From NCBI GenBank assembly GCA_964398415.1, contig CAYNOM010000002.1, forward strand, positions 4,292-44,068: a stretch of 39,777 bases of DNA, given 5' to 3'. Shown here piece by piece: positions 1,142 to 38,007 of the stretch. Source of the DNA: an uncultured Polyangiales bacterium. GTDB lineage: Bacteria; Myxococcota_A; Polyangia; Polyangiales; DASUME01. The notes under the pieces were generated by a model, which saw only the letters and a program-made list of their open reading frames with translations, had not been told where the DNA came from and made no database searches. The first letter of the stretch is position 1; each line of letters opens with the position of its first letter. The position numbers and the translations under genes were made by a program.

Positions 1142-1225
1142 TTTCCCCCTCGTGCACGAGGCATTATCTCGCACTAGCGTACGTGCGCAGGACCGCGTTG
1201 AAAACCGGTGTGACGCATGCCTACA

Positions 1226-6690: not shown

Positions 6691-6721
6691 GTAGCGTCAA
6701 GACAGCCTGCCCCAGACACTC

Positions 6722-17694: not shown

Positions 17695-17795
17695 GCTTGA
17701 AGCATACTCGAAGGGTGGGACGGACGGGGTCGCTCCGCGCCAGTCACCCGCGCGTGTGTCCGCCGTTTGTAGGGCGAAACGCTACGCTGTGGACG

Positions 17796-18071: not shown

Positions 18072-18259
18072 GGTCACGCCCTTTCGTGGCCCGCACGGGA
18101 CGGGCATTGTCTGTAATACAACCTATGCACCATGACGCGATGCGCAATGGGGCACACCCGTCTTTCTTGGCGTGAGGGGGCGGCCTGCCCGCATTTGTCC
18201 CGCTTTCCGCGGCCTGGAAATGATGTTAGTGAGTAATCACTACAGTTGTGGAGGATCCG

Positions 18260-20554: not shown

Positions 20555-20600
20555 CGCGCTCGGCCCACCCAAGGCTGCGAGCCTCTGCTACAGCTCGGCC

Positions 20601-25098: not shown

Positions 25099-25698
25099 AT
25101 GGCTCGGCGCGGGAGTAAGCTGCGGCCCTTGCTTGCCGAGGACTCCGTGGGCGCGCACGTCTACCCATTGCCGTTCGATGACACCGAGCACGCCGAGTTG
25201 CAGCGCGCCCTGGGGTGTCGATCCGTGGATGCTTTGCTCGGGTTCATGACCGCGCTCGTGAGCTTGCCCGAGGTGATCCCCACGGGAGCCTGGCTCGGCG
25301 AGCTGCTCAAGGACGCAGACCTCTCCGATGGGCCGCACATCGAGCGCGTCGCTTCGCACCTCGCGCGGCTCAACAACTTGATCGCGAGCGCGCTGAGCTT
25401 CTCCGAGATCGAGCGCTTCTGTCCGGCTGCGAGCGATGAGCCAGCCTGTCGTGCTTGGGCCCAGGGCTATCTCGACGTCATCGATCAGATCGACCTCGAG
25501 GGTGAGAGTGATGAGGTCCACGAGGACGTGGTGGCGCTGTCGTCGGTGGCGTTGCGCGTCGACGACGCGTTGCTCGCGCCCGAGCTCGAGGGCATGACGC
25601 CCGAGGCCTATCGTGCGGCGAGTCGCAAGGAGCTCGCGGCCATCGCCGCAGAGCTGCACCAGACGTGGCACAAGCGGCGCGCCGGACGGCGTCGCTAA
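25099..25698 (+). CDS. UPF0149 (YecA/YgfB N-terminal-like) family protein
   Basis: Pattern LLGFMTALVSLPEVIPTGAWLGELL...CRAWAQGYL resembles UPF0149 from memory. Coding-like GC3. Confidence 0.6.
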   Translation: MARRGSKLRPLLAEDSVGAHVYPLPFDDTEHAELQRALGCRSVDALLGFMTALVSLPEVIPTGAWLGELLKDADLSDGPHIERVASHLARLNNLIASALSFSEIERFCPAASDEPACRAWAQGYLDVIDQIDLEGESDEVHEDVVALSSVALRVDDALLAPELEGMTPEAYRAASRKELAAIAAELHQTWHKRRAGRRR

Positions 25699-25768
25699 AT
25701 CCGCTTCGTGCTTGGTTGGCGCGAGATCCCTCGATAAGGTGATCCGAGGGACAGGGCCAAGGGGGACG

Positions 25769-27061
25769 ATGGTGGCAGAGCGAGCCGACGAGGAGCTGTT
25801 GCCGGGACGGGCGGCAGAGCCCGATCGCTTCGAATTCCGGGGCGAGATCGCCTGCGGGGGCATGGGCAGCATCTACGACGTCGTCGATCGCACCTTGCGT
25901 CGCCGCCTGGCCATGAAGGTGCTGCATCCGCTGATGGCGGGCAGCGCCACCGAGCTCAACACCTTCGTGCGCGAGGCGCGACGCACGGCCAAGCTCGAGC
26001 ACCCGAGCATCGTGCCCGTGCACGACCTCTTCGCCGATCAGGCGAGCGAGAGCGCTTCGTTCGTGATGAAGTTCGTCGAGGGCGAGACCCTCTCGGCGTG
26101 GATTCAGCGCGAAGGGACGGCCGGCGGGATCCGCGGGCGCACGCTGGAGCGCGCGCTGCAGATCATCACCAAGGTGTGTGATGCCGTCGAGTTCGCCCAC
26201 AGTCGCGAGGTCTTGCACCTCGATTTGAAGCCCGACAACGTGATGATCGGCGAGCACGGCGAGGTGTACCTGATGGATTGGGGCATCTCCGTCGACTGCG
26301 AGCGCAACGCCGAAGGGCGGCTCGTGCCCCGCCTCGAGCGGCCCGGGGCGCGCGGCACACTCAGCCACATGGCGCCCGAGCAGCTCGACATGCTGCTGGC
26401 GCGCGTCGATGAGCGCGCCGACATCTACGGCCTCGGCGGGCTGCTCTACGAGGTGCTCACGGGTCGGGCGCCGTTCGTGCCCACTGGAGCTCCCGAAGAC
26501 CTCTTGCGTCTGCGCGAGCATCGGGTGCCGGCGCCCGAGGACGTGGCTCCGAGCCACGCCCTGCCGCCCGGCCTCGTGGCCATCGCCATGCGCTGTCTCG
26601 CCTTCGAGCGCGACGCGCGCTACCCGAGCGTGGGCGCGCTCAAGGTCGACCTCGAGAGCTTTCTGCGCGGCGGTGGCTGGTTTCAGACGAAGGCCTTCGC
26701 CGCCTCGGAAGACTTGGTGCGGGAGGGAGAGAAGGGCGACGCCGCCTACATTCTCGTCGAGGGCGAGTGCGACATCATCAAGGGCCACGGCGAGCACGCG
26801 CGCGTGGTGGGGCGCATCGGAGCGGGCGAAATCACCGGCGAGACCGCCTTGCTCGCGACAGGCACTCGCACCGCAACCGTGCGTGCGGTGACTTTCGTGC
26901 GGGTGCTCGTGGTGACGCGCGAGACGCTGGAGCGCGAGCTCGAGGGGCGCGGCTGGCTCGAAACCCTGGTACGCGCCCTGGCGCGCCGCTTCGCCGAGGC
27001 AGACAACGAGCGCACGAACCTGCGCGAGCAGCTCAGGCAACGTGGCTCGATCCCAGGCTAG
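25769..27061 (+). CDS. Ser/Thr protein kinase fused to a C-terminal cyclic-nucleotide-binding domain
   Basis: Internal ATG 25769 after AAGGGGGA. GGMGSIYDV, AMKVL, HLDLKPDNVMI, MDWGIS, HMAPEQ. The C-terminal cNMP-like region reads FAASEDLVREGEKGDAAYILVEGEC...GEITGETALL...RTATVRA. Confidence 0.9.
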   Translation: MVAERADEELLPGRAAEPDRFEFRGEIACGGMGSIYDVVDRTLRRRLAMKVLHPLMAGSATELNTFVREARRTAKLEHPSIVPVHDLFADQASESASFVMKFVEGETLSAWIQREGTAGGIRGRTLERALQIITKVCDAVEFAHSREVLHLDLKPDNVMIGEHGEVYLMDWGISVDCERNAEGRLVPRLERPGARGTLSHMAPEQLDMLLARVDERADIYGLGGLLYEVLTGRAPFVPTGAPEDLLRLREHRVPAPEDVAPSHALPPGLVAIAMRCLAFERDARYPSVGALKVDLESFLRGGGWFQTKAFAASEDLVREGEKGDAAYILVEGECDIIKGHGEHARVVGRIGAGEITGETALLATGTRTATVRAVTFVRVLVVTRETLERELEGRGWLETLVRALARRFAEADNERTNLREQLRQRGSIPG

Positions 27062-27433: not shown

Positions 27434-28105
27434 TCACGGGGGCGGTGCGACAGACGCGGTCGGGCAGACGGAGTTTCGCGCGCATCGCGCGTGCTCGAAC
27501 AGCGCCTCGAACACCGAGCGCACGTCTTCGAAGGCCCGCACAGCGCCCTGCCGCGCGCTCTCCCGCAGGGGCATGGCGTCTAGTCTCTGATCGAGCTCGT
27601 GACGAAAGCGCTGAAAGCGAGCCATGGTCTCCTTACCGTGTCCCCTGAAGTAGCGCGTGCTCCCGTCATCGAGCGCGAGACGAGCCGAGATCATGGGATA
27701 GAGCATGGCTGAGCCCAGTGCCGAGCCTTCGAGCACGTAGAGCCGACCGAGCAGGCTGGCCTCATCGAGCAGGCTCGTGTCTACGGTGCAGGCGCGGGCG
27801 ATCGCGGCGCGGAGCGACCTCGGCAGGCTGTGGGTGGCGCATCCGAGCGCCGCAAGATCCTGGTCCGCGAGCGCACTCTTGCGGGGCGTGCTGAGCAGAT
27901 GGGAGAGGCCCTTGGCTTCGAGCGCCCACTCGAGGTGACGATGGAGCTCCGCGTAGGCGCACAAGAGCTCGGCGTAGCTCGTGCGCGAGATCTCGCCCTT
28001 CGCGAGCAGCTCGGCGAACGCCGTCGACTCGGTCTGCTTGTGCTCGACCTGGGTCACCGCCTTGAGCCAAAGCGAGGCCTGCGGGATCAATGGGTGGAGT
28101 TCCAT
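27434..28105 (-). CDS. Heme oxygenase family protein (last gene of the operon)
   Basis: Internal ATG 28105 (MELHPLIPQ). LKAVTQVEHKQTESTAF matches the proximal-His helix (HO-1 LKEATKEVHTQAENAEF, from memory). LYVLEGSALGS matches the bacterial HO distal-helix motif YVLEGS.LGG. 223 aa. Confidence 0.75.
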   Translation of the reverse strand: MELHPLIPQASLWLKAVTQVEHKQTESTAFAELLAKGEISRTSYAELLCAYAELHRHLEWALEAKGLSHLLSTPRKSALADQDLAALGCATHSLPRSLRAAIARACTVDTSLLDEASLLGRLYVLEGSALGSAMLYPMISARLALDDGSTRYFRGHGKETMARFQRFRHELDQRLDAMPLRESARQGAVRAFEDVRSVFEALFEHARCARNSVCPTASVAPPP

Positions 28106-28554
28106 CTGCGAAGCTCCTCGATGAAGGCGTGAAGGTAAGGCTCGAAGGCGTAGGTGTCGGCCTCGTTCAACACCTCGGCCATGGCCTCGCGCAGGGTCTC
28201 GAAGCTCGACACGAGCGCGGCTGGCTCGATCAGTTGGCACAGCTGCTCGGCGACCCATTCGGCGTGGGCCTCCACGAAGTGCGTGAGGTCGGCCCGCACG
28301 TGCGCGAGCGCCACGCGCCTGAGCATGTGGCGCAGCTCTTCGATCCCCTCGGCACGGCCACCGTGAAGACGTCTCACGTCACCGAGGCGCTCGAGCGCGC
28401 GCACGTAGATGCGCTCTTCGGCAGCTTGCATGCGGCGCGCGGCAGACAGACGTTGGCCCATACCGGTTGCATACTCGCGTAACGCGTCGACCTCCTGGTC
28501 GCTCAAGAAGCGCCCCTCGGCGTTGACGATCATCGATCTGAGCTCGGTGTTCAT
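28087..28554 (-). CDS. Phycobiliprotein-like (phycobilisome protein family, globin fold) protein A
   Basis: ATG 28554 overlaps the kinase stop as ATGA. MNTELRSMIVNAEGRFLSDQEVDAL...RLSAARRMQAAEERI aligns by eye with phycocyanin/allophycocyanin N-termini (..AD.QGRFLS..EL...). C-terminal YLHAFIEEL resembles YIDYAINAL. 155 aa. Confidence 0.6.
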   Translation of the reverse strand: MNTELRSMIVNAEGRFLSDQEVDALREYATGMGQRLSAARRMQAAEERIYVRALERLGDVRRLHGGRAEGIEELRHMLRRVALAHVRADLTHFVEAHAEWVAEQLCQLIEPAALVSSFETLREAMAEVLNEADTYAFEPYLHAFIEELRRWNSTH

Positions 28555-30146
28555 GCGTCTCCCCCTGAAAATGGAATGCGTTCGACGCGTCCCTGTGCGT
28601 CGACCCACGCGAGGCTCGAGGCATTGGCCGCGAGCCCCACGATGGGTTGATCGAGTGCGGTGCGTGCCCGTGCGCCCGTACGCACGTCGAAACTGTAGAG
28701 CGAGCCTTCCTTCTCGATGCCGTACAGGCGCTGCCCGTCGAAGGCTGAGGGTCGCGCGGGCAAGCGCACGCTCCTCGTGCCCGCGGCGCTGAGCAGCAGC
28801 ACACGGCCTTCGGCGCCAGACACATCTGCCACCAAGATCTGGCCGTCATCGTGGACCCACAGGCGCTGCACGTGTGCATCGACAGCGATCTTGCGAGCTT
28901 CGAACATCACGCATGCGCCCCCACCCGCAACCCCCGCGAGTGCGAGCGCGCCGCTCGCGCCGACTGCGAGGGCGGTGATGCGCTGGCCGAGCTCGACTGG
29001 AGCACGCTGCTCCTCTCTACCGCCCGCGATGCGGGCCTTGCCCTCCGTGGCCACTGCGATCTCACCACGCGGACCGAGCGCGATGCACGCACCAGGTCGG
29101 ACGCGCATGCCACGCACGGGGCCGTGGGGGCCATGGACGCGCACTTCGTTGCCATGGCGCAGCGCGAAGTACTCTCCATGGGCCAGCATTTCGTCTACGT
29201 CGCTGTGGGCTTCCTGCGCGTCGCCGCGCGGCCCATGACGCGAGACATCGCGGCCCGTGCGCAGCAGCAATGCGTAAGGCGTGAGGGCCAGCTCCTCGAC
29301 GCCGGGTGCGTAGAGCGGCCAACGCTCGTTCACGAACTCGGAGGCTTCGTCACGCAGCGCGAGCGTCAGGGCGGAGATCCACGCGTCCACCGTATCGAAG
29401 CGATCTTCGGGCCGTTTGGCCAAGCTCCGCTCGAGCAAGAGGCGCATGCGCGGTGGCAGCCACTCAGGAAGCACCGGCTCGCGCTCCAGGTGCGCCAGCA
29501 TGATTTGGGCCGGCGTGCCCGCGAAAGGTCTTTGCCCGCACAGGATCTCGTAGACCACGACGCCCAGCGAGTAGACGTCCACGCGTCTGTCGTAGGAGTC
29601 GTAGAACTGCTCAGGCGCCATGTACGCAGGAGAGCCGCTGTTGCTACGCGTGGCCGCCTCCACGCCGAGCGCAGAGATGCCGAAGTCGGTGACTTTGGCG
29701 CGCAGGCCGCCGCCGCTGCGCGTGACGAGGATGTTCTCGGGCTTCAAGTCGCGGTGCAGCACGTTGCGCGCATGGGCGTACGCCACGCCCGCCGCGGCCT
29801 CGCGCACGAGCTCGAGCGTGGCCACTACCTCTGTGCCGAGGTTGATGCGCTCACGCAGGGAGCCGAGCTCCATGTATTCGTACACGAGGTAGCGCAGGCC
29901 CTGCTCCATGAACACCGAATCCGCGCGTACCACCGCGGGATGGGCGAGGTCGAAGACGGCCCCGATCTCACGCATGAAGGTGTCTTCGCCCGCGAGCGCC
30001 GAGAACTCCTTGAGCGCCACACGACGCTGGGCCTTGACGTCGTGCGCGAGGTAGACGCGTCCGTGGGCGCCTTGTCCGAGCACGCGCTCGGTGGCGTAAC
30101 GCCCGCCGAGTAAGCGTCTCTCTCTCTCGTAGCCCGCGAGATTCAA
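28551..30146 (-). CDS. Ser/Thr protein kinase with ~250-aa beta-rich C-terminal domain
   Basis: GQGAHGRVYLA, VALKEF, HRDLKPENILV, DFGIS, AYMAPEQ. The proposed TTG start at 30146 overlaps the upstream stop as TTGA, with AAGGGGG 10 nt upstream. The ORF start 30482 and ATG 30257 would overlap the V4R gene extensively. Confidence 0.9.
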   Translation of the reverse strand: MNLAGYERERRLLGGRYATERVLGQGAHGRVYLAHDVKAQRRVALKEFSALAGEDTFMREIGAVFDLAHPAVVRADSVFMEQGLRYLVYEYMELGSLRERINLGTEVVATLELVREAAAGVAYAHARNVLHRDLKPENILVTRSGGGLRAKVTDFGISALGVEAATRSNSGSPAYMAPEQFYDSYDRRVDVYSLGVVVYEILCGQRPFAGTPAQIMLAHLEREPVLPEWLPPRMRLLLERSLAKRPEDRFDTVDAWISALTLALRDEASEFVNERWPLYAPGVEELALTPYALLLRTGRDVSRHGPRGDAQEAHSDVDEMLAHGEYFALRHGNEVRVHGPHGPVRGMRVRPGACIALGPRGEIAVATEGKARIAGGREEQRAPVELGQRITALAVGASGALALAGVAGGGACVMFEARKIAVDAHVQRLWVHDDGQILVADVSGAEGRVLLLSAAGTRSVRLPARPSAFDGQRLYGIEKEGSLYSFDVRTGARARTALDQPIVGLAANASSLAWVDAQGRVERIPFSGGDA

Positions 30147-30802
30147 GACGCTGAGACCCCCTTCAGCTTGTCTAGGATCTCGCTTGCCGGGCGCTTCTGC
30201 TTCACCCACGCGGACGCTGGTGCGAGCCGGTCTGTCATTCCAACTACGAACTTGCATGACTCGTCTCCCTGGCTTCGACACGCGATCTCGACACAGCTCA
30301 GATCCCGCCCCGAGATGTGTGAGATCAGAGATCCCAAGACACCGGCGACGAGGTGATCCGAGGGCCTGTCGAGCTTGCCTACACTCGCGCTGTAGGGGGC
30401 TCCGCTCACGTCGGCGACGATGAAGCCCTGCGCTGCGAGGTCGAAGGACAGCTCGAGATTGCCCCAGCCGAGCAGGCCCCACGAGCGGCGCAGGCTCTGC
30501 ACGTACATGGCGAGCGGGATTTCGTGGAGCGCCCGTCCATGGAAGGCGCGCACCTCATCCGAGTGTCTTTGGGCGTAGCGCGCCCCCCACCACTTGCCGA
30601 CGCTGTAGAGGACCACGGGAGCGGCGCTGCCCGTCTCTTCTTCGAGGCCCTTGTGAAGGCCCTGGATCAGCTGTTCTGGAATCGCGAGCATGCGCGTCCC
30701 CATCGGGCTTCGGATCACGCCCTTTCTGACGTCGAGCTTCAGGTAGCTCTCGGCGCGGTAGGGATTGGTGGCCATGCTCGCGGGATCGTCGGGGCGGTTC
30801 AT
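30143..30802 (-). CDS. V4R (4-vinyl reductase-type small-molecule-binding) domain protein 1
   Basis: The ATG overlaps the upstream stop as ATGA (30799-30802). C-terminal V4R signature HLVAGVLGSLISHISGRDLSCVEIACRSQGDESCKFVVG. Paralogous to 31650-32294. Confidence 0.7.
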   Translation of the reverse strand: MNRPDDPASMATNPYRAESYLKLDVRKGVIRSPMGTRMLAIPEQLIQGLHKGLEEETGSAAPVVLYSVGKWWGARYAQRHSDEVRAFHGRALHEIPLAMYVQSLRRSWGLLGWGNLELSFDLAAQGFIVADVSGAPYSASVGKLDRPSDHLVAGVLGSLISHISGRDLSCVEIACRSQGDESCKFVVGMTDRLAPASAWVKQKRPASEILDKLKGVSAS

Positions 30803-31290
30803 GCGTCACTCCTTTCGTGCTCGAGCTCGGTGATGATGAGCTCGATGTAGGGAGCGAGGCGTCTTCCGCGCTCCGCTCCGAGATGCGTGATCGCGGCGTC
30901 GACCAGTCGTTTGTAGCCGTAGATCATCGGTTCTTTCGGCATCAGCGCGACCACGATGGTCTTCATCCAGATCGCGAGCTTGTCGCGGACGAAGTCGGGG
31001 TCGGACAGCAGCATGCCCAGCACCGCGTAGCGGTACACGAAGGTCATGTCGCGGCGCCCGCGCAGCTCGCTGTCTGCTCCGTGATTGCGCGCGAGCTCGG
31101 GGTGACGAGCCATCAGCGCCGAGAGCGCGTCATCGATGATGAGCTTCTCCTGGGCTTCGAGCTCGCGAACCGAGGGCAACGCGACGAGCAAGCTCTCCGT
31201 GTAGGCACGAATCTCGGCCTCTTCGGTCTCCGTGAAGTAGCGACTCTGGGCGCCGTAGAGCGCCTTTCTGACATCGGCCTGCATACTCAT
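30799..31290 (-). CDS. Phycobiliprotein-like (globin fold) protein B
   Basis: Start ATG 31290 or 31284, with GAGGAG directly upstream. ...ALYGAQSRYFTETEEAEIRAY...ELEAQEKLIIDDALSAL parallels protein A and phycobiliprotein N-termini. GRRDMTFVYRYAVLGML aligns by eye with the C-A-R-D-x3-Y-L-R chromophore-site helix. ~162 aa. Confidence 0.55.
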   Translation of the reverse strand: MSMQADVRKALYGAQSRYFTETEEAEIRAYTESLLVALPSVRELEAQEKLIIDDALSALMARHPELARNHGADSELRGRRDMTFVYRYAVLGMLLSDPDFVRDKLAIWMKTIVVALMPKEPMIYGYKRLVDAAITHLGAERGRRLAPYIELIITELEHERSDA

Positions 31291-31294
31291 CTCC

Positions 31295-31636
31295 TCACGT
31301 CCAGTTGAAGGCGCCGAACACGGCATCCACCGTTTGACCCTGCTGATGATCGGTCGGGCCATCGGCCTTACCCGTCCAATTCACGGTCGAGAACACGAGA
31401 CCCACGGGTCTTGCGGCATCGGCGAGGCGCACGCGCTTCTGATCGTCGGGCAAGACGCCCCAGCGCACGTGGCGCGCGAACACCGAGCCTGCCGGGCGCG
31501 CCATCAAGGGGTCGACCCTGTGGGGCTCGATGCGCGGGGGAAGGCTTCTCGTCGTGCGCGCGAGGCGACTCGTCTCGGGCCTTTGCGGCTCGTCGCTGCG
31601 CGCGGGAGGCGGAAGGGTTGCGGCGTGCATGCTCAT
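31295..31636 (-). CDS. Orphan 113-aa protein
   Basis: GAGGAAAG SD 3 nt before ATG 31636. GC-rich third positions. The stop lies 4 nt before the next start. Pro/Arg-rich N-terminal half, beta-like C-terminal half with VNWT/FNWT. No family recognised. Confidence 0.45.
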   Translation of the reverse strand: MSMHAATLPPPARSDEPQRPETSRLARTTRSLPPRIEPHRVDPLMARPAGSVFARHVRWGVLPDDQKRVRLADAARPVGLVFSTVNWTGKADGPTDHQQGQTVDAVFGAFNWT

Positions 31637-31649
31637 GGACTTTCCTCGC

Positions 31650-32294
31650 TCACAGCCGCCCGATGACGTCGTTGGCGCTCGCGCCCTCTTCGAGCCAGAA
31701 CTGCACGGCGTTGATCTTCTGCTCGGCGCCGATGACGAAGCGGCAGTAGGTCGCGCCCATGGCGTAACACTGGATTTCGATGCCGCTCAGATCGCGCTTG
31801 GCGAGGTGCGTCAGGGCGCCCGCCAGCATGCCGGCGTAGAGGTGACACACGGGCTTTCCCACTTCGCCTAGGGTCTTCGCTACGGCTGAGTCGAAGAGGT
31901 TCACGAGGATGAGGCCCTGATCGCGCTTGCCATCGAGGTCGACCTCCCATGCGCCCCAGCCCATGGTCTGCAGCGGCCACCACCACTCCTCGAGCACGAA
32001 CTTCACGTTCATCTGCCGCATGTCGCGTCCAAACTCGCGCAGCATGTTGCTCTCGAAGCGCTTGAGGTCGGTGAGCCCCCACTGAAAGCCGCAGCGATAG
32101 AGGACTACGGCCGAGGCATCGCCCACCTCCTGCTCGAGGCCCGCCTGCAGGCCAACGATGAAATCCTCCGAAGCGAAGAACGCGAGCTCGTCGTTTCGAG
32201 TGCGCACGCTTCCGCCCTTCGGGTCGAAGCGGAAGTAGTCTTCGAGGGTGAAGTAGTTGTGCTTCTTGGGTTGCTGTCCGATGATCACGCTCAC
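31650..32294 (-). CDS. V4R domain protein 2
   Basis: GTG start 32294, with GGGGGA 4 nt upstream. V4R signature KPVCHLYAGMLAGALTHLAKRDLSGIEIQCYAMGATYCRFVIG. Confidence 0.7.
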   Translation of the reverse strand: MSVIIGQQPKKHNYFTLEDYFRFDPKGGSVRTRNDELAFFASEDFIVGLQAGLEQEVGDASAVVLYRCGFQWGLTDLKRFESNMLREFGRDMRQMNVKFVLEEWWWPLQTMGWGAWEVDLDGKRDQGLILVNLFDSAVAKTLGEVGKPVCHLYAGMLAGALTHLAKRDLSGIEIQCYAMGATYCRFVIGAEQKINAVQFWLEEGASANDVIGRL

Positions 32295-32304
32295 GGTTTC
32301 CCCC

Positions 32305-32784
32305 TCACGCGTCTCGCGTGTCCTTCATGACCCTCTGCAGATCGGCTTCGACCTGCATCAGCTGCTGCGCGGTGCTGCGCGTGATGATCTTGCCGGCCTG
32401 AACCAGGACGCGGCCATCGACGGGGTGCAGCACGCGTAGCTCGGCGCGACGGCCCACGAGCTCGTCGATGTCCGCGTGTTGGGCCACGTACAAACCTTCA
32501 GGCAGCCTGATGACCACGCCGTCACGCAGCACCTTGGCCTGGCAGGCAAGTCGAGACTCGGAGGTTGCCTCGCCGATCAGCGATAGCGTGCGCTCTTCGC
32601 GCTTCGTGCGCGGCGTGATGCAGTTGTCTCCACTCTGCACGTAGACGTGGCAGGTGGCACAGATGCCGCGTCCACCGCAGGCCATCTTCACCGGCACGCG
32701 CTCCGCAAGCAGAGCTTGAAGCACGTTGGCTTCGGTCTTCACTTCCACGATCTTTGCGGTGCCCGCGAACTGGACGGTCTTCAT
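32305..32784 (-). CDS. [2Fe-2S] ferredoxin, adrenodoxin-type spacing, with ~60-aa C-terminal extension
   Basis: C-x5-C-x2-C-x35-C pattern (MACGGRGICATCHV...SRLACQA). The ATG overlaps the upstream stop as ATGA (32781-32784). Confidence 0.85.
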   Translation of the reverse strand: MKTVQFAGTAKIVEVKTEANVLQALLAERVPVKMACGGRGICATCHVYVQSGDNCITPRTKREERTLSLIGEATSESRLACQAKVLRDGVVIRLPEGLYVAQHADIDELVGRRAELRVLHPVDGRVLVQAGKIITRSTAQQLMQVEADLQRVMKDTRDA

Positions 32785-33701
32785 CGTCGTGCCTCCCCCG
32801 GTTTCGAATCGACAGCGTGGCCCTGCGCGTACGTCTCAGACTCGGCGGCGGCGCTACGCGAAAGCGCATCGAGATCGAGATCGCGGATCGACGGATCGAG
32901 GTCCGACACCAGGGCGATGAAAGCCTCGCACCAGCGCCGCACCATGACGCTCGCGCGTGAGAGCTCGAGCTCATCGGGGCGGCTGCAACGCACGCTGCCA
33001 TCGAGGTCGACCTCGAACGGATCCAGCGTTCCGTCGCTACACACGGCCTTGCGGGCGCGATTCAGATAGTTGCGCCGAACTGCACCACCGAGGTTCTTAC
33101 CCGCGTGCGCCGACAGGGCGGCCACCTGTGCGAGCAGACCCTGCGCGTCGAGCTCGCTCGGCCCATCGCTCGTGCGCGTGAACGCGAGAGGTGCCTCGCG
33201 TGGGGCATTCGATCTCGCGAGCAGCGCCGACGGAGAGAGCGGCTCGAGCTTGAGCGACGACGGTGGCGGTACGGTGGCTACGTCTTCGGGCTCGGGTGCA
33301 GGGACAGTGATGGTGGCGGGGCGTGACGCGGGTGAGGACGACCGAAGCGGGCCCCCGTCGCCACTGAGAGCCGATCCCACCGCATCGACGAGCGACGGTA
33401 CCGACAGGGCGACCCGGCTGACCACGGCGTGGAGGTGTGCTCCCTCCCTGACGCGCAGCGCGACGCTGCCCTTGCCGGCTCTGAGCCATACGATGCGGCA
33501 CGTGGCCGTCTCCACCTCCAGAAAACGCGCATCGGGCTGACGCTCGAAGAGCTGACTCAGGATGGGTAGGGCCTGAGAGAGCGCATCGGCATGGGCGTCG
33601 AGGCGCGCGCAGTAGGTGGAGCCATCCTCTGCGAAGAAGGCGACGCCGTCGACGTCTGGAACAGCAAGCATTCCGCTCAGGGTGTCGATCAATCCGAGCA
33701 T
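32781..33701 (-). CDS. Roadblock/LC7 (MglB-like) N-terminal domain protein with Pro/Ser-rich linker and C-terminal domain
   Basis: N-terminal MLGLIDTLSGMLAVPDVDGVAFFAEDGS...CRIVWLRAGKGSVALRVREGAHL fits the Roadblock/LC7 pattern by eye. The start overlaps the upstream gene by 13 nt. Confidence 0.5.
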   Translation of the reverse strand: MLGLIDTLSGMLAVPDVDGVAFFAEDGSTYCARLDAHADALSQALPILSQLFERQPDARFLEVETATCRIVWLRAGKGSVALRVREGAHLHAVVSRVALSVPSLVDAVGSALSGDGGPLRSSSPASRPATITVPAPEPEDVATVPPPSSLKLEPLSPSALLARSNAPREAPLAFTRTSDGPSELDAQGLLAQVAALSAHAGKNLGGAVRRNYLNRARKAVCSDGTLDPFEVDLDGSVRCSRPDELELSRASVMVRRWCEAFIALVSDLDPSIRDLDLDALSRSAAAESETYAQGHAVDSKPGEARR

Positions 33702-34276
33702 GTGAGCCCCTTCAGGGTGCTCTCGAGCAGGTCACGACTGGGCGGTCTGCCGACGTCGGTGAGGCACACCGCTGCGTCGCGGCCGCGGGGACGCAGCACG
33801 GCCATCACCCGGTCGTCGCACAGGCTGGCCGAAAGCGCCTCGGTCTCGCCCAGGGCGTGCGCCGTGGCGGCCGCGATCTGCTGAGTCAGGTTCATCGCAT
33901 CGAGCCAACGCGGTGAGAGCGAGAGCTGAGAGAGCTCTTGTCGCGAGGGCGGCGCACTCAACGTGAAGCTGCACAGGATGCCCGGCGCGATGGGGCGAAC
34001 CGTGGGCGTTGCGCTCGTATCGATGTGGATCTCCCGTGACATGACGCTCCGTAGGGCGTGAAGGTGGGTGGCATTCAGCGCGCGCGCCAAGCGTGCTGAC
34101 TTGCGCGGGCCGTCCCGGCTCGCGTCCTCGTCGAGCTCGTGCCGGGTCGTAGACAGCGTGATGCCGTCTTGTTGAACGGTGGTGACGAGGTGTGCAGGGT
34201 CGCTCTCACTCGCCACGGTCTTGACCTCGAGCGTGCGATCGGAAAGCTCGACGCTGGACTGCCTGTGCATGCTCAT
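33689..34276 (-). CDS. Hypothetical protein, possible divergent Roadblock-like C-terminal half
   Basis: The ATG overlaps the GTPase stop as ATGA (34273-34276). Coding-like GC3. The C-terminal AAATAHALGETEALSASLCDDRVMAVLRPRGRDAAVCLTD weakly resembles the second half of a Roadblock fold. Confidence 0.45.
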   Translation of the reverse strand: MSMHRQSSVELSDRTLEVKTVASESDPAHLVTTVQQDGITLSTTRHELDEDASRDGPRKSARLARALNATHLHALRSVMSREIHIDTSATPTVRPIAPGILCSFTLSAPPSRQELSQLSLSPRWLDAMNLTQQIAAATAHALGETEALSASLCDDRVMAVLRPRGRDAAVCLTDVGRPPSRDLLESTLKGLTCSD

Positions 34277-35397
34277 GCTCCCGCCGAGCGGAACCAGCCG
34301 CGTCGCTTGCGCGTGTCGTTCGACAGCTCTTCGAGGGACTCCTGTAGATTTTGGAGGTCGCGATGCAGTGCACCCTGACCTGCCCGCACCTGGGCATCGA
34401 CCTCGCGGAGGCTGTCACTCAGATCGTGCAGGTCGGCCAGCTCCTTGCGAATGTCCGCGATCAGCTCCCCCCGCAGCAACGGAAGTTGGTCGAGCCGCTC
34501 CACGACACTTTGGTGCAGGCGGTCGTTGGCGACGGGCACCACGGCCACGGCTTCCTTCAGGGTCTCTCCCGTCTGGTGAATGAGCTTTCGAGTTCCGATG
34601 GTCTGCTCTTCGAGCGCGCGTCGTAGACTACGCATGTCGCGCTCACGGGCTTCGGCGTCGACCTTCAGCGCGTCGATGGTCTGGTGGGCAGCGTCGACGC
34701 GTGCGTGCAGGGCAACGAAGCGTTCTGCCAGGCTGTCGAGGGCGCCCACGATGCGATCGAGCTTGCTCGAGGTGCGCTCCCCTTCGAGTCTCTGTCTCAG
34801 GCCACTCGTCTGGGGATCCTGAAATGCTCGGCGCGCCGCCTGTTCGTAAGCGCACTGCAGCGCAGCGACGACGCCCTGTCCGGTGCTCGCCACGCTCTCG
34901 AAGCACAACGCGTCGGGCATGCCGATGCTGCGCAGAAGCTCCTCACGCGAGCTCGGGTCTGGGTCGTCGGCATGGTTGAGCTGTACCACCACCGGCAGCG
35001 TGCTGAGGGTTTGACCCTGGCGACTCAGATCATCGAACAAGCGCTGCGCCGCCTGCTCGTTGGCCGGGCCATGCGCCTTGCCTGAGTGCAGCACCAGCAC
35101 GACCGCATCGGCGCCCTGCAACAGACGCTCGGTGGTGGTCCGCTGCCGAGCCTCGCCCACGAGACCCCGCACGCGGACCAGCACTTGTGCCCCTTCGAGC
35201 GCATCGCGTTGATTGGGCACCCAATCAAACATCGCCGTGCGATCGCCGTTCTGGTTGAGCGAGATAAGCTCGGTGGCTCTGCCGGCCTCGGTGGCGCGCC
35301 GCACCGCTTCGAGTGCCGCGAGCTTGCCCGCGCCCTCGGGCCCCAAGTAGGCAATACACAGCTCCACCGAGCCGCGCTCCACATCCACGCGTGGCAT
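34273..35397 (-). CDS. MglA-like small GTPase domain (degenerate G motifs) fused to ~190-aa coiled-coil tail; first gene of the operon
   Basis: ATG 35397, with GAGGGGGG 4 nt upstream. ELCIAYLGPEGAGKLAAL / LISLNQNGDRTAMFDWVP / GADAVVLVLHSG / LPVVVQLNHADDP / ASTGQGV are collinear with M. xanthus MglA (IVYYGPGLCGKTTNL / LISLSTETDRTLFFDFLP / GVDGVVFVADSQ / IPYVIQYNKRDLP / APTGVGV, from memory). Confidence 0.75.
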   Translation of the reverse strand: MPRVDVERGSVELCIAYLGPEGAGKLAALEAVRRATEAGRATELISLNQNGDRTAMFDWVPNQRDALEGAQVLVRVRGLVGEARQRTTTERLLQGADAVVLVLHSGKAHGPANEQAAQRLFDDLSRQGQTLSTLPVVVQLNHADDPDPSSREELLRSIGMPDALCFESVASTGQGVVAALQCAYEQAARRAFQDPQTSGLRQRLEGERTSSKLDRIVGALDSLAERFVALHARVDAAHQTIDALKVDAEARERDMRSLRRALEEQTIGTRKLIHQTGETLKEAVAVVPVANDRLHQSVVERLDQLPLLRGELIADIRKELADLHDLSDSLREVDAQVRAGQGALHRDLQNLQESLEELSNDTRKRRGWFRSAGA

Positions 35398-35801
35398 GGT
35401 TCCCCCCTCATGCGCGCCCATCTGCCGGGCGTCTATCCCGTAACAGGGATGTCCTAAGTTAAACAGCAGCCATGGACAAAGTCTATGTTTGCCTAGGGTG
35501 TGGACCGATTTTGGTGGCAGGCCTTGAGGCGACCAGCGCTGGCATGCGCTGTGGGATCACACCACTTATTCTGAGTAGTTGCGATGCCATGAGTGGGCGC
35601 GCATGCAGTCTTGCGCAGCTGCTCTGGCGCTCACCGTGGGTCACTGTTTGTTCATTGTTTGGTTCGGGTAGGGTGGTTGTGCAGGGCAACCACGCGGGCG
35701 CGCCTTGTAGGCCGTGACCCGCGTGTGCACTGGGCGGCTTGGGGGCTTGTCCCCATAGTTGCGTCTCGAGGCGCTGAGCCTTCGTGAGAAGGAGAGGACG
35801 A
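35398..35801. promoter_or_regulatory. ~400-bp divergent intergenic region between the 11-gene operon and the LLM oxidoreductase gene
   Basis: Longest non-coding gap in the window and visibly less GC-rich than its surroundings. Contains a TGTTTG direct repeat 11 bp apart (35645-35650, 35656-35661) and a 7-bp-stem hairpin/palindrome gtggttg-N7-caaccac (35673-35693). No confident -35/-10 or sigma-54 element identified. Confidence 0.4.
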
Positions 35802-37361: not shown

Positions 37362-37970
37362 ATGGAGTCTGTGCAGCAGTTCCTGAGTGACACGTTCGGC
37401 AAGGCTTGGGACACCTTCAAAGGCGATCCACTGACCTACGTCGTCGCTTCTCTGATCCTGGGCTTTGTAACCATGATTTCGCTCGGCTTGCTCGCCGGGC
37501 CGCTCACCGTGGGCTTCATCCGCATCATCAAGCACAAGCGCGAGGGACGCGAGGCGGGCATCGGTGACGTGTTCGACTTCTCGAGCTTCGTCAGCAGCTT
37601 GCTCGTGATGGTGATCCTCGGCGTGGCGATCTTCATCGGGACGCTCTTGCTCGTCATCCCCGGGCTCGTGGTGGCCGTGTTCGGCGTGTTCGCCATCTAC
37701 GAGGTGGCCTACACGGACGTGGGCCCGATTGAAGCCATCCAAAACAGCATCTCGCTCGTCAAGGAGCACTTCCTCAACGTGCTCGTGCTGATGATCGTCG
37801 TCATCGCGATCAACATGGTAGGTGGCTCGGTCATGCTCGGCGCCCTGCTCACGGTGCCCTTCGGCATGATCATGCTGTCCATCGCCTACGAGAAGATGAC
37901 CGACAAGACGAGCGCGCTCGATCCCAGCACAGCGCCGCGTTTCGACCAGGTGCCGCCCCAGGGCCTGTGA
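37362..37970 (+). CDS. Integral membrane protein (4-5 TM helices), unknown function
   Basis: AAGGGGGCAAGG before the ATG. Multiple long hydrophobic segments. No family assigned. Confidence 0.7.
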   Translation: MESVQQFLSDTFGKAWDTFKGDPLTYVVASLILGFVTMISLGLLAGPLTVGFIRIIKHKREGREAGIGDVFDFSSFVSSLLVMVILGVAIFIGTLLLVIPGLVVAVFGVFAIYEVAYTDVGPIEAIQNSISLVKEHFLNVLVLMIVVIAINMVGGSVMLGALLTVPFGMIMLSIAYEKMTDKTSALDPSTAPRFDQVPPQGL

Positions 37971-38007
37971 TGTCTCTTCCACCGCGCACGGGCGGGGCTG
38001 CTACGGT

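What the first reader, a model, noticed from the sequence alone, without database searches (positions are those of the whole stretch)
27434..35397. Eleven-gene translationally coupled operon joining heme oxygenase, ferredoxin, two phycobiliprotein-like globins, two V4R proteins, a Ser/Thr kinase and an MglA/Roadblock GTPase module
Seen in sequence: eleven same-strand ORFs run from 35397 down to 27434 with almost no intergenic space. The junctions are ATGA (34273-34276), a 13-nt overlap (33689-33701), ATGA (32781-32784), 10-nt and 13-nt spacers carrying GGGGGA / GAGGAAAG Shine-Dalgarno motifs, a 4-nt spacer, ATGA (30799-30802), TTGA (30143-30146), ATGA (28551-28554) and a 19-nt overlap (28087-28105). 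The gene order is MglA-like GTPase with coiled coil, two Roadblock-like proteins, adrenodoxin-type 2Fe-2S ferredoxin, V4R, 113-aa orphan, phycobiliprotein-like B, V4R, Hanks kinase, phycobiliprotein-like A, heme oxygenase. Established knowledge: heme oxygenase opens heme to biliverdin and uses ferredoxin as reductant in cyanobacteria and plants. Phycobilisome-family proteins are bilin carriers. V4R is named after BchJ and is regarded as a tetrapyrrole or small-molecule-binding domain. MglA/MglB (Roadblock) is a GTPase/GAP switch. Streptomyces conservons likewise combine a kinase, a Roadblock protein and an MglA-like GTPase. Inference: this looks like a self-contained module that makes a bilin (or handles heme or another tetrapyrrole), binds it on globin-like and V4R proteins, and signals through a kinase and a GTPase switch. 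The host otherwise looks like a non-photosynthetic myxobacterium. No phytochrome/GAF domain, ferredoxin-dependent bilin reductase or bilin lyase is present in the window. I know of no characterised system with this composition.
Basis: partly seen in the sequence, partly recalled or inferred. Interest (0 to 1): 0.92.

Follow-up and report, generated by a model that had tools for sequence, protein, structure and literature searches.

The report
Myxobacterial bilin-globin/V4R signalling operon
This is a real, conserved 11-gene operon: a myxobacterial version of an already described but functionally unsolved gene cluster (haem oxygenase, ferredoxin, two V4R proteins, phycobiliprotein-like "BBAG" globins). 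Comparative data add a dedicated protein kinase, a Roadblock protein, a small repeat protein and, in one myxobacterial clade, an MglA-type GTPase that has decayed in this genome.

Summary
Eleven minus-strand ORFs (35397→27434) have exactly the reported overlaps and spacers. All are under purifying selection, and the whole order recurs in a divergent relative with different flanks.

Pfam supports Fer2, 2×V4R, 2×Phycobilisome, Pkinase and Heme_oxygenase.

The core (HO + Fe-S + two V4R + phycobiliprotein-like globins) is not unknown. It is the BBAG / pre-PcyA-type cluster of Rockwell et al. 2023, homologous to the cyanobacterial slr0144–slr0152 operon, which ends in the kinase gene spkG.

Differences in this window:
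- no bilin reductase anywhere in the 39.8 kb;
- neither globin has the chromophore cysteine;
- the MglA-like protein has degenerate G motifs, so it is probably a pseudo-GTPase.

New from comparison of about 90 loci:
- a WD40-tailed Ser/Thr kinase is present in 61 of 65 informative loci, so it is part of the conserved core;
- the "orphan" is present in 75 loci;
- a Roadblock-domain protein paired with the ferredoxin is present in 37 loci;
- the GTPase and G2 are confined to one Myxococcota clade.

Most likely function is a biliverdin-making, bilin/redox-sensing protein complex with kinase output; this is inferred.

Verdict: new variant of a known kind, interest about 0.6.

The parts
34273..35397 (-). 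G1: MglA-derived G domain (aa ~9-182) plus a ~190-aa coiled-coil-like tail; G motifs degenerate, so a probable pseudo-GTPase or scaffold
   Evidence: phmmer vs PDB: MglA (6hjh, 3t12), E=8e-17. Window motifs are GPEGAGKL / GLVGE / NHAD, against GAGLSGKT / TVPGQ / NKRD in the L007, L008, L011, L013 and L021 orthologues. The L001 orthologue has no P-loop Lys. L003 has SHTD at the G4 motif. pN/pS 0.21. The tail gives only coiled-coil noise in Pfam.
33689..34276 (-). G2: fast-evolving partner that always follows the GTPase gene; fold unresolved (possibly MglB/MglC-like C-terminal half)
   Evidence: No Pfam, PDB or NCBIfam hit. In the family-profile search vs PDB, the only hits below E=10 are MglC (0.09) and MglB (0.6-1.2). 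AF2 pLDDT is 62 and Foldseek finds nothing meaningful. hhalign vs G3 is negative. An exhaustive phmmer search finds 2 real homologues. Found in 14 loci, all Myxococcota-type.
32781..33701 (-). G3: N-terminal Roadblock/LC7 domain (aa 1-113), Pro-rich linker, and a conserved C-terminal alpha/beta domain (aa ~185-298) with no recognised family; paired with the ferredoxin gene
   Evidence: Profile vs PDB: Roadblock 7f8m, E=3e-4, and dynein LC7. AF2 model: pLDDT 71 overall and ~90 in the C-domain. Foldseek top 50 are all Roadblock/LAMTOR/MglB, prob 1.0, TMt 0.6-0.69. No Pfam family for any of 29 members. Family found in 37 loci, including cyanobacteria.
32305..32784 (-). G4: 2Fe-2S ferredoxin (CX5CX2C...C, ISC/adrenodoxin-like) with a ~70-aa C-terminal extension; the cluster's 'Fe-S protein'
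   Evidence: Pfam Fer2 4e-11. NCBIfam nearest is fdx_isc, 3e-14, below cut-off. Cys at 36, 42, 45 and 81. 79% identical in L001. No non-synonymous change vs L003.
31650..32294 (-). G5: V4R protein 'a' (first of the pair)
   Evidence: Pfam V4R 5e-19. 633 homologues; 52-59% identical in Acidobacteriota, Sumerlaeota and cyanobacterial loci. Invariant Cys150, Glu173, Cys176 and Cys184.
31295..31636 (-).
   Evidence: Iterated HMM finds the family in 75 loci. Present in 46 of 46 cyanobacterial loci that have both V4R genes. Alignment A4 shows repeated 'SVxxFFxxxNWxG' motifs. 51% identical in L001, conserved over the C-terminal 70 aa. No Pfam family.
30799..31290 (-). G7: phycobiliprotein-like globin (BBAG), first copy; Arg-Asp of the CXRD motif kept, Cys replaced by Gly, no Cys in the whole protein
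   Evidence: Pfam Phycobilisome 5.5e-17. PDB allophycocyanin alpha-B 2e-6, with RGRRD aligned to QCLRD. Motif table. Cys count.
30143..30802 (-). G8: V4R protein 'b' (second of the pair)
   Evidence: Pfam V4R 3.5e-10. Weak NCBIfam hits to BchJ and MsvR. Labelled V4Rb by best HMM in every locus.
28551..30146 (-). G9: Hanks Ser/Thr kinase with intact catalytic motifs plus a C-terminal WD40-like beta-propeller; the cluster-specific kinase family
   Evidence: Pfam Pkinase 2e-45. Motifs GQGAHG, ALK, HRDLKPEN, DFG and APE are present. C-terminal profile vs PDB hits WD40/WRAP-T at 7e-10. Kinases next to the clusters score 336-770 bits on the family HMM, against 110-156 for other kinases in the same loci. 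Present in 61 of 65 informative loci.
28087..28554 (-). G10: second, more derived phycobiliprotein-like globin; lacks both the Cys and the Arg-Asp at the canonical site
   Evidence: Pfam Phycobilisome 2e-9. 'EGIEE' at the CXRD column. Single Cys, at position 106. 74% identical in L001.
27434..28105 (-). G11: canonical-fold heme oxygenase (HemO/HmuO/HO-1 type)
   Evidence: Pfam Heme_oxygenase 1e-14. Family profile vs PDB: HemO 4e-21, and HO-1, HO-2 and HmuO at 1e-13 to 1e-18. His22 aligns with the His in HemO's TTAVHDSVD segment. Invariant His22...Glu26 and YVxEGSxLG.
35398..35777 (.). 380-bp upstream intergenic region shared with a divergent luciferase-like monooxygenase gene; presumed promoter region
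   Evidence: It is the only sizeable non-coding gap flanking the block. The sigma-70 consensus scan found nothing. The promoter type is unknown.

Best explanation
SHOWN. The region is one tightly packed, conserved 11-gene unit. It belongs to the BBAG / V4R / Fe-S gene-cluster family first described around pre-PcyA bilin reductases in non-photosynthetic bacteria, which is homologous to the cyanobacterial slr0144-slr0152 operon. Its conserved core is V4Ra - small repeat protein (G6) - BBAG globin - V4Rb - WD40 Ser/Thr kinase, plus a Roadblock-domain protein (G3) paired with a 2Fe-2S ferredoxin. The myxobacterial version adds a second globin, a heme oxygenase and, in one clade, an MglA-type GTPase with a coiled-coil tail plus G2. 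This window is a derived form. It has no bilin reductase, its globins lack the canonical Cys, and its GTPase G motifs have decayed.

INFERRED MECHANISM. The heme oxygenase opens haem to biliverdin, using O2 and electrons from the cluster ferredoxin. Biliverdin is held non-covalently by the globin(s), most plausibly G7, within a soluble complex with the two V4R proteins, G6 (whose three short motifs act as docking peptides) and the Roadblock protein. The complex reports haem, O2, redox or bilin status to the cluster kinase. The kinase phosphorylates cluster components, by analogy with SpkG-dependent phosphorylation of ferredoxin 5. G1 and G2 no longer act as a nucleotide switch here. They serve as a coiled-coil scaffold or localisation module. 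In relatives with intact motifs, the same position is a true MglA-type output alongside PATAN and sigma-54 regulators.
For: Operon and conservation.
Domain identities.
Family membership and published biochemistry (bilin binding by BBAG-1 and BBAG-3; cluster composition): PMC10151467.
The Slr0144-Slr0149 proteins co-purify: PMC9880817.
spkG is the last gene of that operon, and Fd5 phosphorylation is lost in the spkG mutant: PMC11863333.
Cross-phylum linkage from my annotation of 79 GTDB loci: the cluster-type kinase is in 61 of 65 informative loci, G6 in 46 of 46 cyanobacterial loci, and G3 in 11 of 12 Myxococcota, 2 of 2 Acidobacteriota and 9 of 39 cyanobacterial loci.
Myxococcota relatives carry PatA_N, sigma-54 activator, canonical MglA-like GTPase, G2 and G3 upstream of the same core, with or without Fe_bilin_red.
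Kinase catalytic motifs are intact.
The HO proximal His and distal-helix motif are invariant.
The G7 Arg-Asp pair is retained.
Against: Nothing here shows a transcript, a complex, a pigment or phosphorylation.
- Neither globin has the canonical chromophore Cys, G10 also lacks Arg-Asp, and the BBAGs that bound bilins in the literature carried CXRD. Bilin binding by G7 or G10 is therefore not assured.
- Published BBAG holoproteins were photoinert and weakly fluorescent, and their function is stated to be unknown.
- SpkG activity is only indirectly supported, and I could not test orthology of G9 with SpkG directly.
- My 80 GTDB loci are the 80 of 497 most similar to the window's V4Ra, so the kinase linkage may be weaker in more distant clusters. 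Rockwell et al. state that the genes adjacent to the Synechocystis core are often absent.
- G1 is still under purifying selection (pN/pS 0.21), so some nucleotide-dependent function cannot be excluded.
Confidence: 0.6

Rival explanations
1. Protective haem and oxygen detoxification unit with no signalling role. HO removes free haem and O2, the globins and V4R proteins simply sequester the photoreactive bilin or tetrapyrrole, and the kinase and G1-G3 only tune expression or stability.
For: Rockwell et al. propose exactly this as the ancestral role of HO plus a bilin-binding globin. BBAGs are photoinert. The lack of a reductase means only biliverdin is made.
Against: A dedicated WD40 kinase is conserved with the cluster across five phyla. 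PATAN, sigma-54 and MglA-type regulators sit beside it in Myxococcota. Cyanobacterial versions keep the V4R, globin and kinase genes but have no HO at all, so haem breakdown is not the conserved function.
Confidence: 0.15
2. Light-input module. The bilin-loaded globin/V4R complex acts as a non-phytochrome photoreceptor or light-dependent redox sensor that controls motility or polarity (MglA/PATAN branch) or carotenogenesis.
For: In Myxococcota relatives, PATAN proteins lie next to the cluster, and MglA groups are known to occur near PATAN genes (PMC4316618). In L007 the cluster abuts carotenoid genes and a MerR/B12-binding regulator. The window has an RPE65-type carotenoid oxygenase 8 kb away.
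Against: Tested BBAGs showed no photoconversion. In this window the PATAN and sigma-54 genes are absent and the GTPase is degenerate. The carotenoid linkage is seen in one locus only.
Confidence: 0.12
3. Tetrapyrrole or cofactor handling chaperone, analogous to the photosystem II assembly/repair role proposed for slr0144-slr0149. The complex delivers or recycles haem or another tetrapyrrole for client proteins.
For: The cyanobacterial homologues have been implicated in PSI/PSII assembly and repair. V4R proteins have hydrophobic ligand cavities (PMC10933270). The ferredoxin could supply electrons.
Against: The closest relatives of every cluster gene are in non-photosynthetic lineages, which have no photosystems. 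Rockwell et al. note that the PSII phenotypes may stem from adjacent genes. This does not explain the kinase or GTPase linkage.
Confidence: 0.1
4. Fortuitous juxtaposition of unrelated genes, or spurious ORFs in high-GC DNA.
For: High-GC DNA yields many long ORFs. G2, G3 and G6 have no Pfam family.
Against: All eleven are conserved in order in a 26-81% identical relative with different flanks. All are under purifying selection. The G3 and G6 families are found in 37 and 75 loci.
Confidence: 0.01

Closest known systems
BBAG / pre-PcyA-associated gene clusters, especially the pre-3 type of Myxococcales (Rockwell, Martin & Lagarias, PNAS 2023, PMC10151467)
   Same: HO, Fe-S protein, two V4R proteins and one or two phycobiliprotein-like globins in one cluster, in non-photosynthetic bacteria. 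The closest relatives of the window's genes sit in Myxococcota and Polyangiaceae clusters, several of which carry Fe_bilin_red.
   Different: No ferredoxin-dependent bilin reductase in the cluster or anywhere in the 39.8-kb window. Both globins lack the CXRD Cys. The paper does not mention the kinase, the small repeat protein, the Roadblock protein or the GTPase. I did not place the window's proteins in their trees.
Cyanobacterial slr0144-slr0152 ('Pap', PSII assembly protein) operon of Synechocystis, including Fd5 (slr0148) and the kinase SpkG (slr0152)
   Same: V4R, globin, V4R, 2Fe-2S ferredoxin and a Hanks kinase in one operon. In 46 cyanobacterial loci examined here the order V4Ra-G6-globin-V4Rb matches the window, usually followed by the same kinase family. 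The proteins co-purify in Synechocystis. Fd5 phosphorylation depends on SpkG.
   Different: Cyanobacterial clusters have no HO, FDBR or GTPase. Synechocystis has extra PetF-like Fd and TPR genes that are absent here. The closest relatives of the window's cluster genes are in non-photosynthetic lineages. Direct orthology of G9 to SpkG and of G6 to slr0145 is inferred from other cyanobacterial loci, not tested on Synechocystis itself.
MglA/MglB polarity switch of Myxococcus and Thermus, and MglA-PATAN neighbourhoods (Wuichet & Sogaard-Andersen 2014, PMC4316618)
   Same: The G1 G domain is MglA-like (E=8e-17). Orthologues with intact motifs are 44-48% identical to ordinary MglA. A Roadblock-fold protein (G3) is encoded next to it, and PATAN genes lie upstream in relatives.
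   Different: G1 carries a long coiled-coil tail. In this window its P-loop Thr, switch II Gln and NKxD Lys are lost. G3 is a two-domain protein that also occurs without any GTPase (cyanobacteria, Acidobacteriota). G2's fold is unresolved. 80 ordinary MglA loci had no BBAG-cluster genes.
Streptomyces conservons (CvnA-D)
   Same: A kinase, a Roadblock/LC7 protein and an MglA-family GTPase encoded together.
   Different: The conservon kinase is a membrane histidine kinase, whereas here it is a soluble Hanks kinase with a WD40 tail. No CvnC/DUF742 equivalent was detected. There is no tetrapyrrole component in conservons.
TRAPP and Ragulator type GTPase-regulatory platforms (Bet3/TRAPPC3-fold plus longin/Roadblock subunits)
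   Same: V4R belongs to the TRAPPC3/Bet3 superfamily, and Roadblock dimers are GTPase platforms (PMC10933270). Here two V4R proteins, a Roadblock protein and, in relatives, a functional small GTPase are in one operon.
   Different: This is a resemblance of parts only. No evidence of GEF or GAP activity. The V4R-Roadblock pairing persists where no GTPase is present.

Membership tests
BBAG / pre-PcyA-associated cluster (PMC10151467) | Fe-S (2Fe-2S) protein encoded in the cluster | tested here: met
   G4: Pfam Fer2 4e-11, four Cys ligands
BBAG / pre-PcyA-associated cluster (PMC10151467) | Two V4R proteins, one from each of two clades | tested here: met
   G5 and G8 both hit Pfam V4R. Two separate HMM families label V4Ra and V4Rb consistently in 89 loci. 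Identity with the paper's clades A and B was not checked on their tree.
BBAG / pre-PcyA-associated cluster (PMC10151467) | One or two globins homologous to phycobiliproteins | tested here: met
   G7 and G10: PF00502, 5.5e-17 and 2e-9. G7 hits allophycocyanin structures.
BBAG / pre-PcyA-associated cluster (PMC10151467) | Ferredoxin-dependent bilin reductase (pre-PcyA) in or near the cluster | tested here: not met
   No PF05996 hit on any window ORF scanned. No hit of an FDBR HMM on any window ORF of 60 aa or more. Relatives L008, L011, L012, L021 and the P0030 locus do have it. The rest of the genome is unseen.
BBAG / pre-PcyA-associated cluster (PMC10151467) | Heme oxygenase (typical, not universal) | tested here: met
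   G11: PF01126 1e-14; family profile vs HemO 4e-21; invariant His22 and Glu26
BBAG / pre-PcyA-associated cluster (PMC10151467) | Globin binds bilin (CXRD motif in the characterised BBAG-1 and BBAG-3) | tested here: not met
   Motif test only. G7 has RGRRD (Gly for Cys, Arg-Asp kept, no Cys in the protein). G10 has EGIEE. Actual binding is not testable with these tools.
Cyanobacterial slr0144-slr0152 type operon | Collinear V4R - small protein - globin - V4R block with ferredoxin and a Hanks kinase | tested here: met
   The same order is seen in the cyanobacterial loci among L027-L088. G6 family in 46 of 46 and kinase family in 38 of 39 informative loci. Not compared with the Synechocystis sequence itself.
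Cyanobacterial slr0144-slr0152 type operon | TPR protein (Slr0151) and PetF-type ferredoxin (Slr0150) | tested here: not met
   No TPR protein or second Fer2 protein among the eleven products
MglA-type small GTPase | Sequence homology of the G domain to MglA | tested here: met
   E=8e-17 to four MglA structures over aa 9-182
MglA-type small GTPase | Intact G1 (GxxxxGK[ST]), switch II (TVPGQ) and G4 (NKxD) motifs | tested here: not met
   Window: GPEGAGKL, GLVGE, NHAD. L003: SHTD. L001: no P-loop. Five orthologues from other Myxococcota are canonical.
MglB / Roadblock-LC7 partner | Roadblock/LC7 fold protein encoded beside the GTPase | tested here: met
   G3 N-domain: profile hit to 7f8m at 3e-4; Foldseek top 50 all Roadblock family. 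G2 is inconclusive.
MglB / Roadblock-LC7 partner | GAP or GEF activity on the GTPase | not testable with these tools
   Needs biochemistry. G3 also occurs in clusters that have no GTPase, which argues against a dedicated GAP role.
Streptomyces conservon | CvnA-type histidine kinase and CvnC (DUF742) | tested here: not met
   The kinase is Hanks-type (PF00069). No DUF742 or HisKA in the eleven products.
Light-harvesting phycobiliprotein / phycobilisome | Cys-84-type covalent chromophore site, lyases, linkers | tested here: not met
   No Cys at the site. No lyase or linker family among the window ORFs scanned.

The most novel reading that the evidence does not exclude
The V4R pair, small repeat protein, BBAG globin, Roadblock protein, ferredoxin and WD40 kinase together form a widespread, previously unrecognised class of bilin- or redox-sensing signalling complex. 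It is unrelated to phytochromes and conserved from Myxococcota and Acidobacteriota to cyanobacteria. In one myxobacterial clade its native output is an MglA-type polarity GTPase working on a platform built from Bet3-like (V4R) and Roadblock subunits, a bacterial counterpart of TRAPP/Ragulator-style GTPase regulation. The window would then show that system in a state where the GTPase has become a pseudo-GTPase scaffold and the pigment is biliverdin.
Probability: 0.2. Interest if true: 0.85.

Novelty: new variant of a known kind. Interest (0 to 1): 0.6.

Why it matters
BBAG clusters are the proposed evolutionary source of both phycocyanobilin synthesis and phycobiliproteins, yet the authors who defined them state that their function is unknown.

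This locus and its relatives show that the published five-gene description is incomplete. A dedicated WD40 Ser/Thr kinase, a Roadblock-domain protein and a small repeat-motif protein travel with the core across phyla. In one Myxococcota clade an MglA-type GTPase, PATAN and sigma-54 regulators are attached.

That points to signalling rather than light harvesting or simple detoxification. It also gives concrete, testable partners:
- kinase to ferredoxin;
- globin to V4R to G6;
- Roadblock to GTPase.

The reductase-less, Cys-less, GTPase-decayed form in this window is a natural 'minimal' variant. It could show which parts are essential.

Tried and rejected
1. Single-sequence searches of G2 and G3 against PDB, Pfam and NCBIfam found nothing. 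Only family profiles and a model resolved G3.
2. G2 remains unresolved. The profile gave only sub-threshold MglC/MglB hits. AF2 with a 3-sequence alignment gave pLDDT 62 and Foldseek noise. hhalign of G2 against G3 was negative. The exhaustive phmmer search found only two true homologues.
4. The metagenome scan with a G1 alignment was meant to test whether G1-type GTPases always sit in BBAG clusters. It yielded only one short G1-type contig, L101, preceded by a PATAN gene. The reverse association therefore remains untested.
5. phmmer of the HO against PDB found nothing; the family profile did.
6. The sigma-70 promoter and terminator scan was uninformative. A sigma-54-like TGGCAT...CTAC upstream of G1 was judged too weak to claim.
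7. I tested whether loss of the globin Cys tracks loss of the reductase. It does not: Cys is sporadic in clusters with and without FDBR.
8. I considered the conservon and haem-uptake readings. I rejected them on missing defining genes: no histidine kinase or DUF742, and no transporter or receptor.
9. I could not obtain the Synechocystis slr0144-slr0152 or MBL9008304-307 sequences, so orthology to the experimentally studied proteins is inferred from gene order and intermediates.

Full report
**1. Observation**

The block 27434-35397 holds eleven minus-strand ORFs. Successive gaps are -4, -13, -4, +10, +13, +4, -4, -4, -4 and -19 nt. Third-position GC is 0.76-0.87 in every called frame. No terminator-like hairpins above shuffle expectation and no sigma-70-like sites lie inside the block. 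The only sizeable non-coding stretch is 380 bp upstream of the first gene. Co-transcription is inferred from packing and conservation, not shown.

**2. What the products are**

Pfam gives above-threshold hits for seven products:

| Gene | Pfam family | E-value |
|---|---|---|
| G4 | Fer2 | 4e-11 |
| G5 | V4R | 5e-19 |
| G8 | V4R | 3.5e-10 |
| G7 | Phycobilisome | 5.5e-17 |
| G10 | Phycobilisome | 2e-9 |
| G9 | Pkinase | 2e-45 |
| G11 | Heme_oxygenase | 1e-14 |

G1, G2, G3 and G6 have no Pfam or NCBIfam family.

- **G1.** Residues 9-182 match MglA structures at E=8e-17. The remaining ~190 residues give only coiled-coil noise.
- **G11.** A profile of its family hits HemO (4e-21), and HO-1, HO-2 and HmuO. 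His22 aligns with the His in HemO's TTAVHDSVD segment. His22...Glu26 and YVxEGSxLG are invariant in the family.
- **G9.** All catalytic motifs are present. The 270-residue tail is a WD40-like beta-propeller (profile vs PDB, 7e-10).
- **G4.** It has the CX5CX2C...C ligand pattern and is nearest to ISC-type ferredoxins.

**3. The core is already in the literature**

Rockwell, Martin and Lagarias (PNAS 2023, PMC10151467) described clusters in non-photosynthetic bacteria that contain:
- a heme oxygenase;
- an Fe-S protein;
- two V4R proteins, one from each of two clades;
- one or two phycobiliprotein-like globins, which they named BBAGs;
- a pre-PcyA bilin reductase.

The 'pre-3' type is largely confined to Myxococcales. 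They showed bilin binding by BBAG-1 and BBAG-3 representatives, both of which carry CXRD. The holoproteins were photoinert, and the authors state that BBAG functions 'are not yet known'. They also showed that the cyanobacterial slr0144-slr0149 cluster descends from these clusters.

In Synechocystis that cluster is part of the slr0144-slr0152 operon:
- its last gene is the Hanks kinase gene spkG;
- Fd5 (slr0148) phosphorylation is lost in a spkG mutant (PMC11863333);
- the Slr0144-Slr0149 proteins interact physically (PMC9880817).

Neither the 2023 paper nor a 2026 follow-up (PMC13446030) mentions a GTPase in these clusters. The 2023 paper also has no mention of Roadblock, and 'kinase' occurs only in its reference list; the follow-up has no mention of a kinase.

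**4. Conservation of the whole unit**

- The window's G7 has only three word-indexed homologues, but their contigs are decisive.
- L003-L006 are ~94.5% identical sister strains.
- L001/L002 carry all eleven genes in the same order with unrelated flanks.

Protein identities between the window and L001:

| Gene | Identity to L001 (%) |
|---|---|
| G5 (V4Ra) | 81 |
| G4 (ferredoxin) | 79 |
| G10 | 74 |
| G8 (V4Rb) | 64 |
| G7 | 58 |
| G9 (kinase) | 52 |
| G6 | 51 |
| G11 (HO) | 43 |
| G3 | 36 |
| G1 | 32 |
| G2 | 26 |

Against L003 every gene has pN/pS of 0.3 or less; G6 is 0.57 on few sites.

**5. The wider family**

V4Ra is highly conserved, with 633 hits. Three Myxococcota contigs and 80 GTDB species representatives were annotated with iterated HMMs built from the window proteins.

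The cross-phylum core is V4Ra - G6 - globin - V4Rb - kinase.
- The cluster-type kinase is present in 61 of 65 loci that have at least 2 kb downstream of V4Rb. It is directly adjacent in 46.
- Sampled cluster kinases score 336-770 bits on the family HMM, against 110-156 bits for other kinases in the same loci.
- The G6 family is in 75 loci, and in 46 of 46 cyanobacterial loci that have both V4R genes.
- The G3 family precedes the ferredoxin in 37 loci. Among loci with enough upstream sequence that is 11 of 12 Myxococcota, 2 of 2 Acidobacteriota and 9 of 39 cyanobacteria.
- HO occurs in about 20 loci and Fe_bilin_red in 11. None of these loci is cyanobacterial.

The GTPase and G2 are restricted to Myxococcota loci whose V4Ra is at least 64% identical to the window's. 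There they usually sit with an upstream PATAN-domain gene and a sigma-54 activator. The window lacks both of those genes.

One caveat applies. The 80 loci are the closest 80 of 497, so linkage frequencies may fall in more distant clusters.

**6. The GTPase/Roadblock part**

- **G1.** Orthologues in L007, L008, L011, L013 and L021 have canonical MglA motifs: GAGLSGKTTN, DRTLFFD, TVPGQ, NKRD. L007 and L008 hit Pfam Arf. Ordinary MglA genes are 44-48% identical to them. The window protein instead reads GPEGAGKL, GLVGE and NHAD. Its sister strain reads SHTD at the last motif, and the L001 orthologue has no P-loop lysine. The lineage that lost the reductase, PATAN and sigma-54 genes thus also let the nucleotide motifs decay while keeping the protein (pN/pS 0.21). 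This is the signature of a pseudo-GTPase.
- **G3.** A family profile hits Roadblock proteins (7f8m at 3e-4; dynein LC7). An AlphaFold model built on 29 homologues shows the alpha-beta-beta-alpha-beta-beta-beta-alpha Roadblock fold in residues 1-113 and a confident C-terminal domain (pLDDT ~90). All top 50 Foldseek matches are Roadblock, LAMTOR or MglB (prob 1.0, TMt 0.6-0.69). The C-domain has no match, and no Pfam family covers any member. Because G3 occurs with the ferredoxin in clusters that have no GTPase, it is a core subunit rather than a dedicated GAP.
- **G2.** It always follows the GTPase gene, but its fold is unresolved.

**7. The globins and the 'orphan'**

- **G7** aligns with allophycocyanin alpha-B. 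RGRRD lies opposite QCLRD, so the Arg-Asp pair is kept and Cys becomes Gly. G7 has no cysteine at all.
- **G10** has EGIEE at that site and a single cysteine elsewhere.
- Across the family, Cys at this column is sporadic and does not track the presence of a reductase.
- With HO but no reductase, the only bilin the operon can make is biliverdin. Any binding must be non-covalent at the canonical site.
- **G6** is a low-complexity protein with three short hydrophobic-Trp motifs: SVFARHVRWG, LVFSTVNWTG and VDAVFGAFNWT. They correspond to the repeated 'SVxxFFxxxNWxG' motifs of the family. I read them as docking peptides; this is an inference.

**8. Mechanism**

*Shown:* gene content, conservation, the folds listed above, intact catalytic motifs in HO, ferredoxin and kinase, and degenerate GTPase motifs.

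*From established knowledge:* canonical heme oxygenases convert haem to biliverdin using O2 and reducing equivalents, which in cyanobacteria and plants are supplied by ferredoxin. BBAG relatives bind bilins. The cyanobacterial homologues form a complex, and Fd5 phosphorylation needs SpkG.

*Inferred:*
- A soluble complex of V4Ra, G6, globin(s), V4Rb, G3 and the ferredoxin binds biliverdin made in situ.
- It controls, or is controlled by, the WD40 kinase.
- G1 and G2 act as a coiled-coil scaffold here.
- They are a genuine MglA-type output in relatives with intact motifs.

The sensed variable (haem, O2, redox or light) is unknown. Rivals are pure detoxification or sequestration, a light sensor for motility or carotenogenesis, and a tetrapyrrole chaperone. 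They are weighed in the rival section. The strongest argument against detoxification is that the V4R, globin and kinase genes persist in cyanobacteria without any HO.

**9. Comparison and novelty**

The locus passes the membership tests for the BBAG cluster family on the Fe-S, two-V4R, globin and HO features. It fails on the reductase and on the CXRD motif.

It matches cyanobacterial clusters in gene order and kinase family. It lacks the TPR and PetF genes of Synechocystis.

It is related to MglA/MglB and only superficially to conservons, because it has no histidine kinase and no DUF742.

V4R belongs to the TRAPPC3/Bet3 superfamily. Asgard GTPase, Roadblock and TRAPPC3 genes are reported not to share operons (PMC10933270). 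MglA neighbourhood surveys mention PATAN but not V4R (PMC4316618). In the literature I could search, the operon-level linkage of two V4R proteins, a Roadblock protein and an MglA-type GTPase therefore appears undescribed.

I rate this a new variant of a known kind. The extended, signalling-flavoured architecture gives a handle on an open question, namely what BBAG clusters do. Interest is 0.6.

**10. Limits**

- No experiment and no transcript data are available.
- Orthology to SpkG, slr0145 and MBL9008307 is inferred.
- The organism is known only as Myxococcota-like. Its best relatives are Myxococcota/Polyangiaceae MAGs, and a DUF2378 gene lies in the window.
- An unlinked reductase elsewhere in the genome cannot be excluded.

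Noticed in passing
window 18233-19717 (+) and 20490-21344 (+): An RPE65-type carotenoid cleavage oxygenase (Pfam 1e-101), with a short-chain dehydrogenase downstream after one unassigned ORF. This is a possible apocarotenoid or retinal-type pathway about 8 kb from the bilin operon.
   Followed up: no
L007 16163-20645 (GCA_039194325.1): In this reductase-less relative, the BBAG cluster abuts two SQS_PSY (phytoene synthase-type) genes, an amine-oxidase-family flavoprotein (PF01593, the family of phytoene desaturases) and a MerR/B12-binding regulator of the CarH type. This hints at a light or carotenoid context but is seen in one locus only.
   Followed up: no
window 25598-27061 (+), 16672-17781 (-): Two further Hanks kinases lie in the window. 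One is fused to a cyclic-nucleotide-binding domain and lies convergent to the heme oxygenase gene. It is conserved in the sister strain L003 but not in L001.
   Followed up: partly
L053 15693-18581, L054 and L024 (Sumerlaeota and an unclassified proteobacterial MAG): Very long ORFs of ~960-970 aa carry a BBAG/phycobiliprotein-like region next to a normal-sized BBAG and the cluster kinase. They may be multidomain or fused globins, or over-extended ORF calls.
   Followed up: no
L007 9166-9507, L008 9056-9511, P0030 locus: A third small protein (113-151 aa, no Pfam family) sits between G3 and the ferredoxin in several Myxococcota clusters. It is absent from the window and from L001.
   Followed up: partly
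alignment A1 (V4Ra), window G5 residues 150, 173, 176, 184: Cys150, Glu173, Cys176 and Cys184 are invariant across 15 V4Ra proteins from three phyla. This may correspond to the structural Zn site described for V4R/TRAPPC3 folds. The best NCBIfam hit for both V4R proteins is MsvR.
   Followed up: no
L051 (MAG labelled Actinomycetota): Its cluster has exactly the Microcoleus-type layout and similar identity levels. This suggests a mis-binned cyanobacterial contig rather than an actinobacterial BBAG cluster.
   Followed up: no
window 5950-6696 (-), 2-1225 (-), 37900-39330 (+): Three further genes: a DUF2378 protein; a ZU5-domain protein that runs off the window start; and a PilS-like histidine kinase, which in L003 is followed by a response regulator with an HTH_8 domain.
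   Followed up: no
L101 1-1445 (metagenome contig ERZ724520): This was the only G1-type GTPase recovered by the metagenome scan (69% identity to L007 over 111 aa). It is directly preceded by a PATAN-domain gene, and the contig is too short to show a BBAG cluster.
   Followed up: partly
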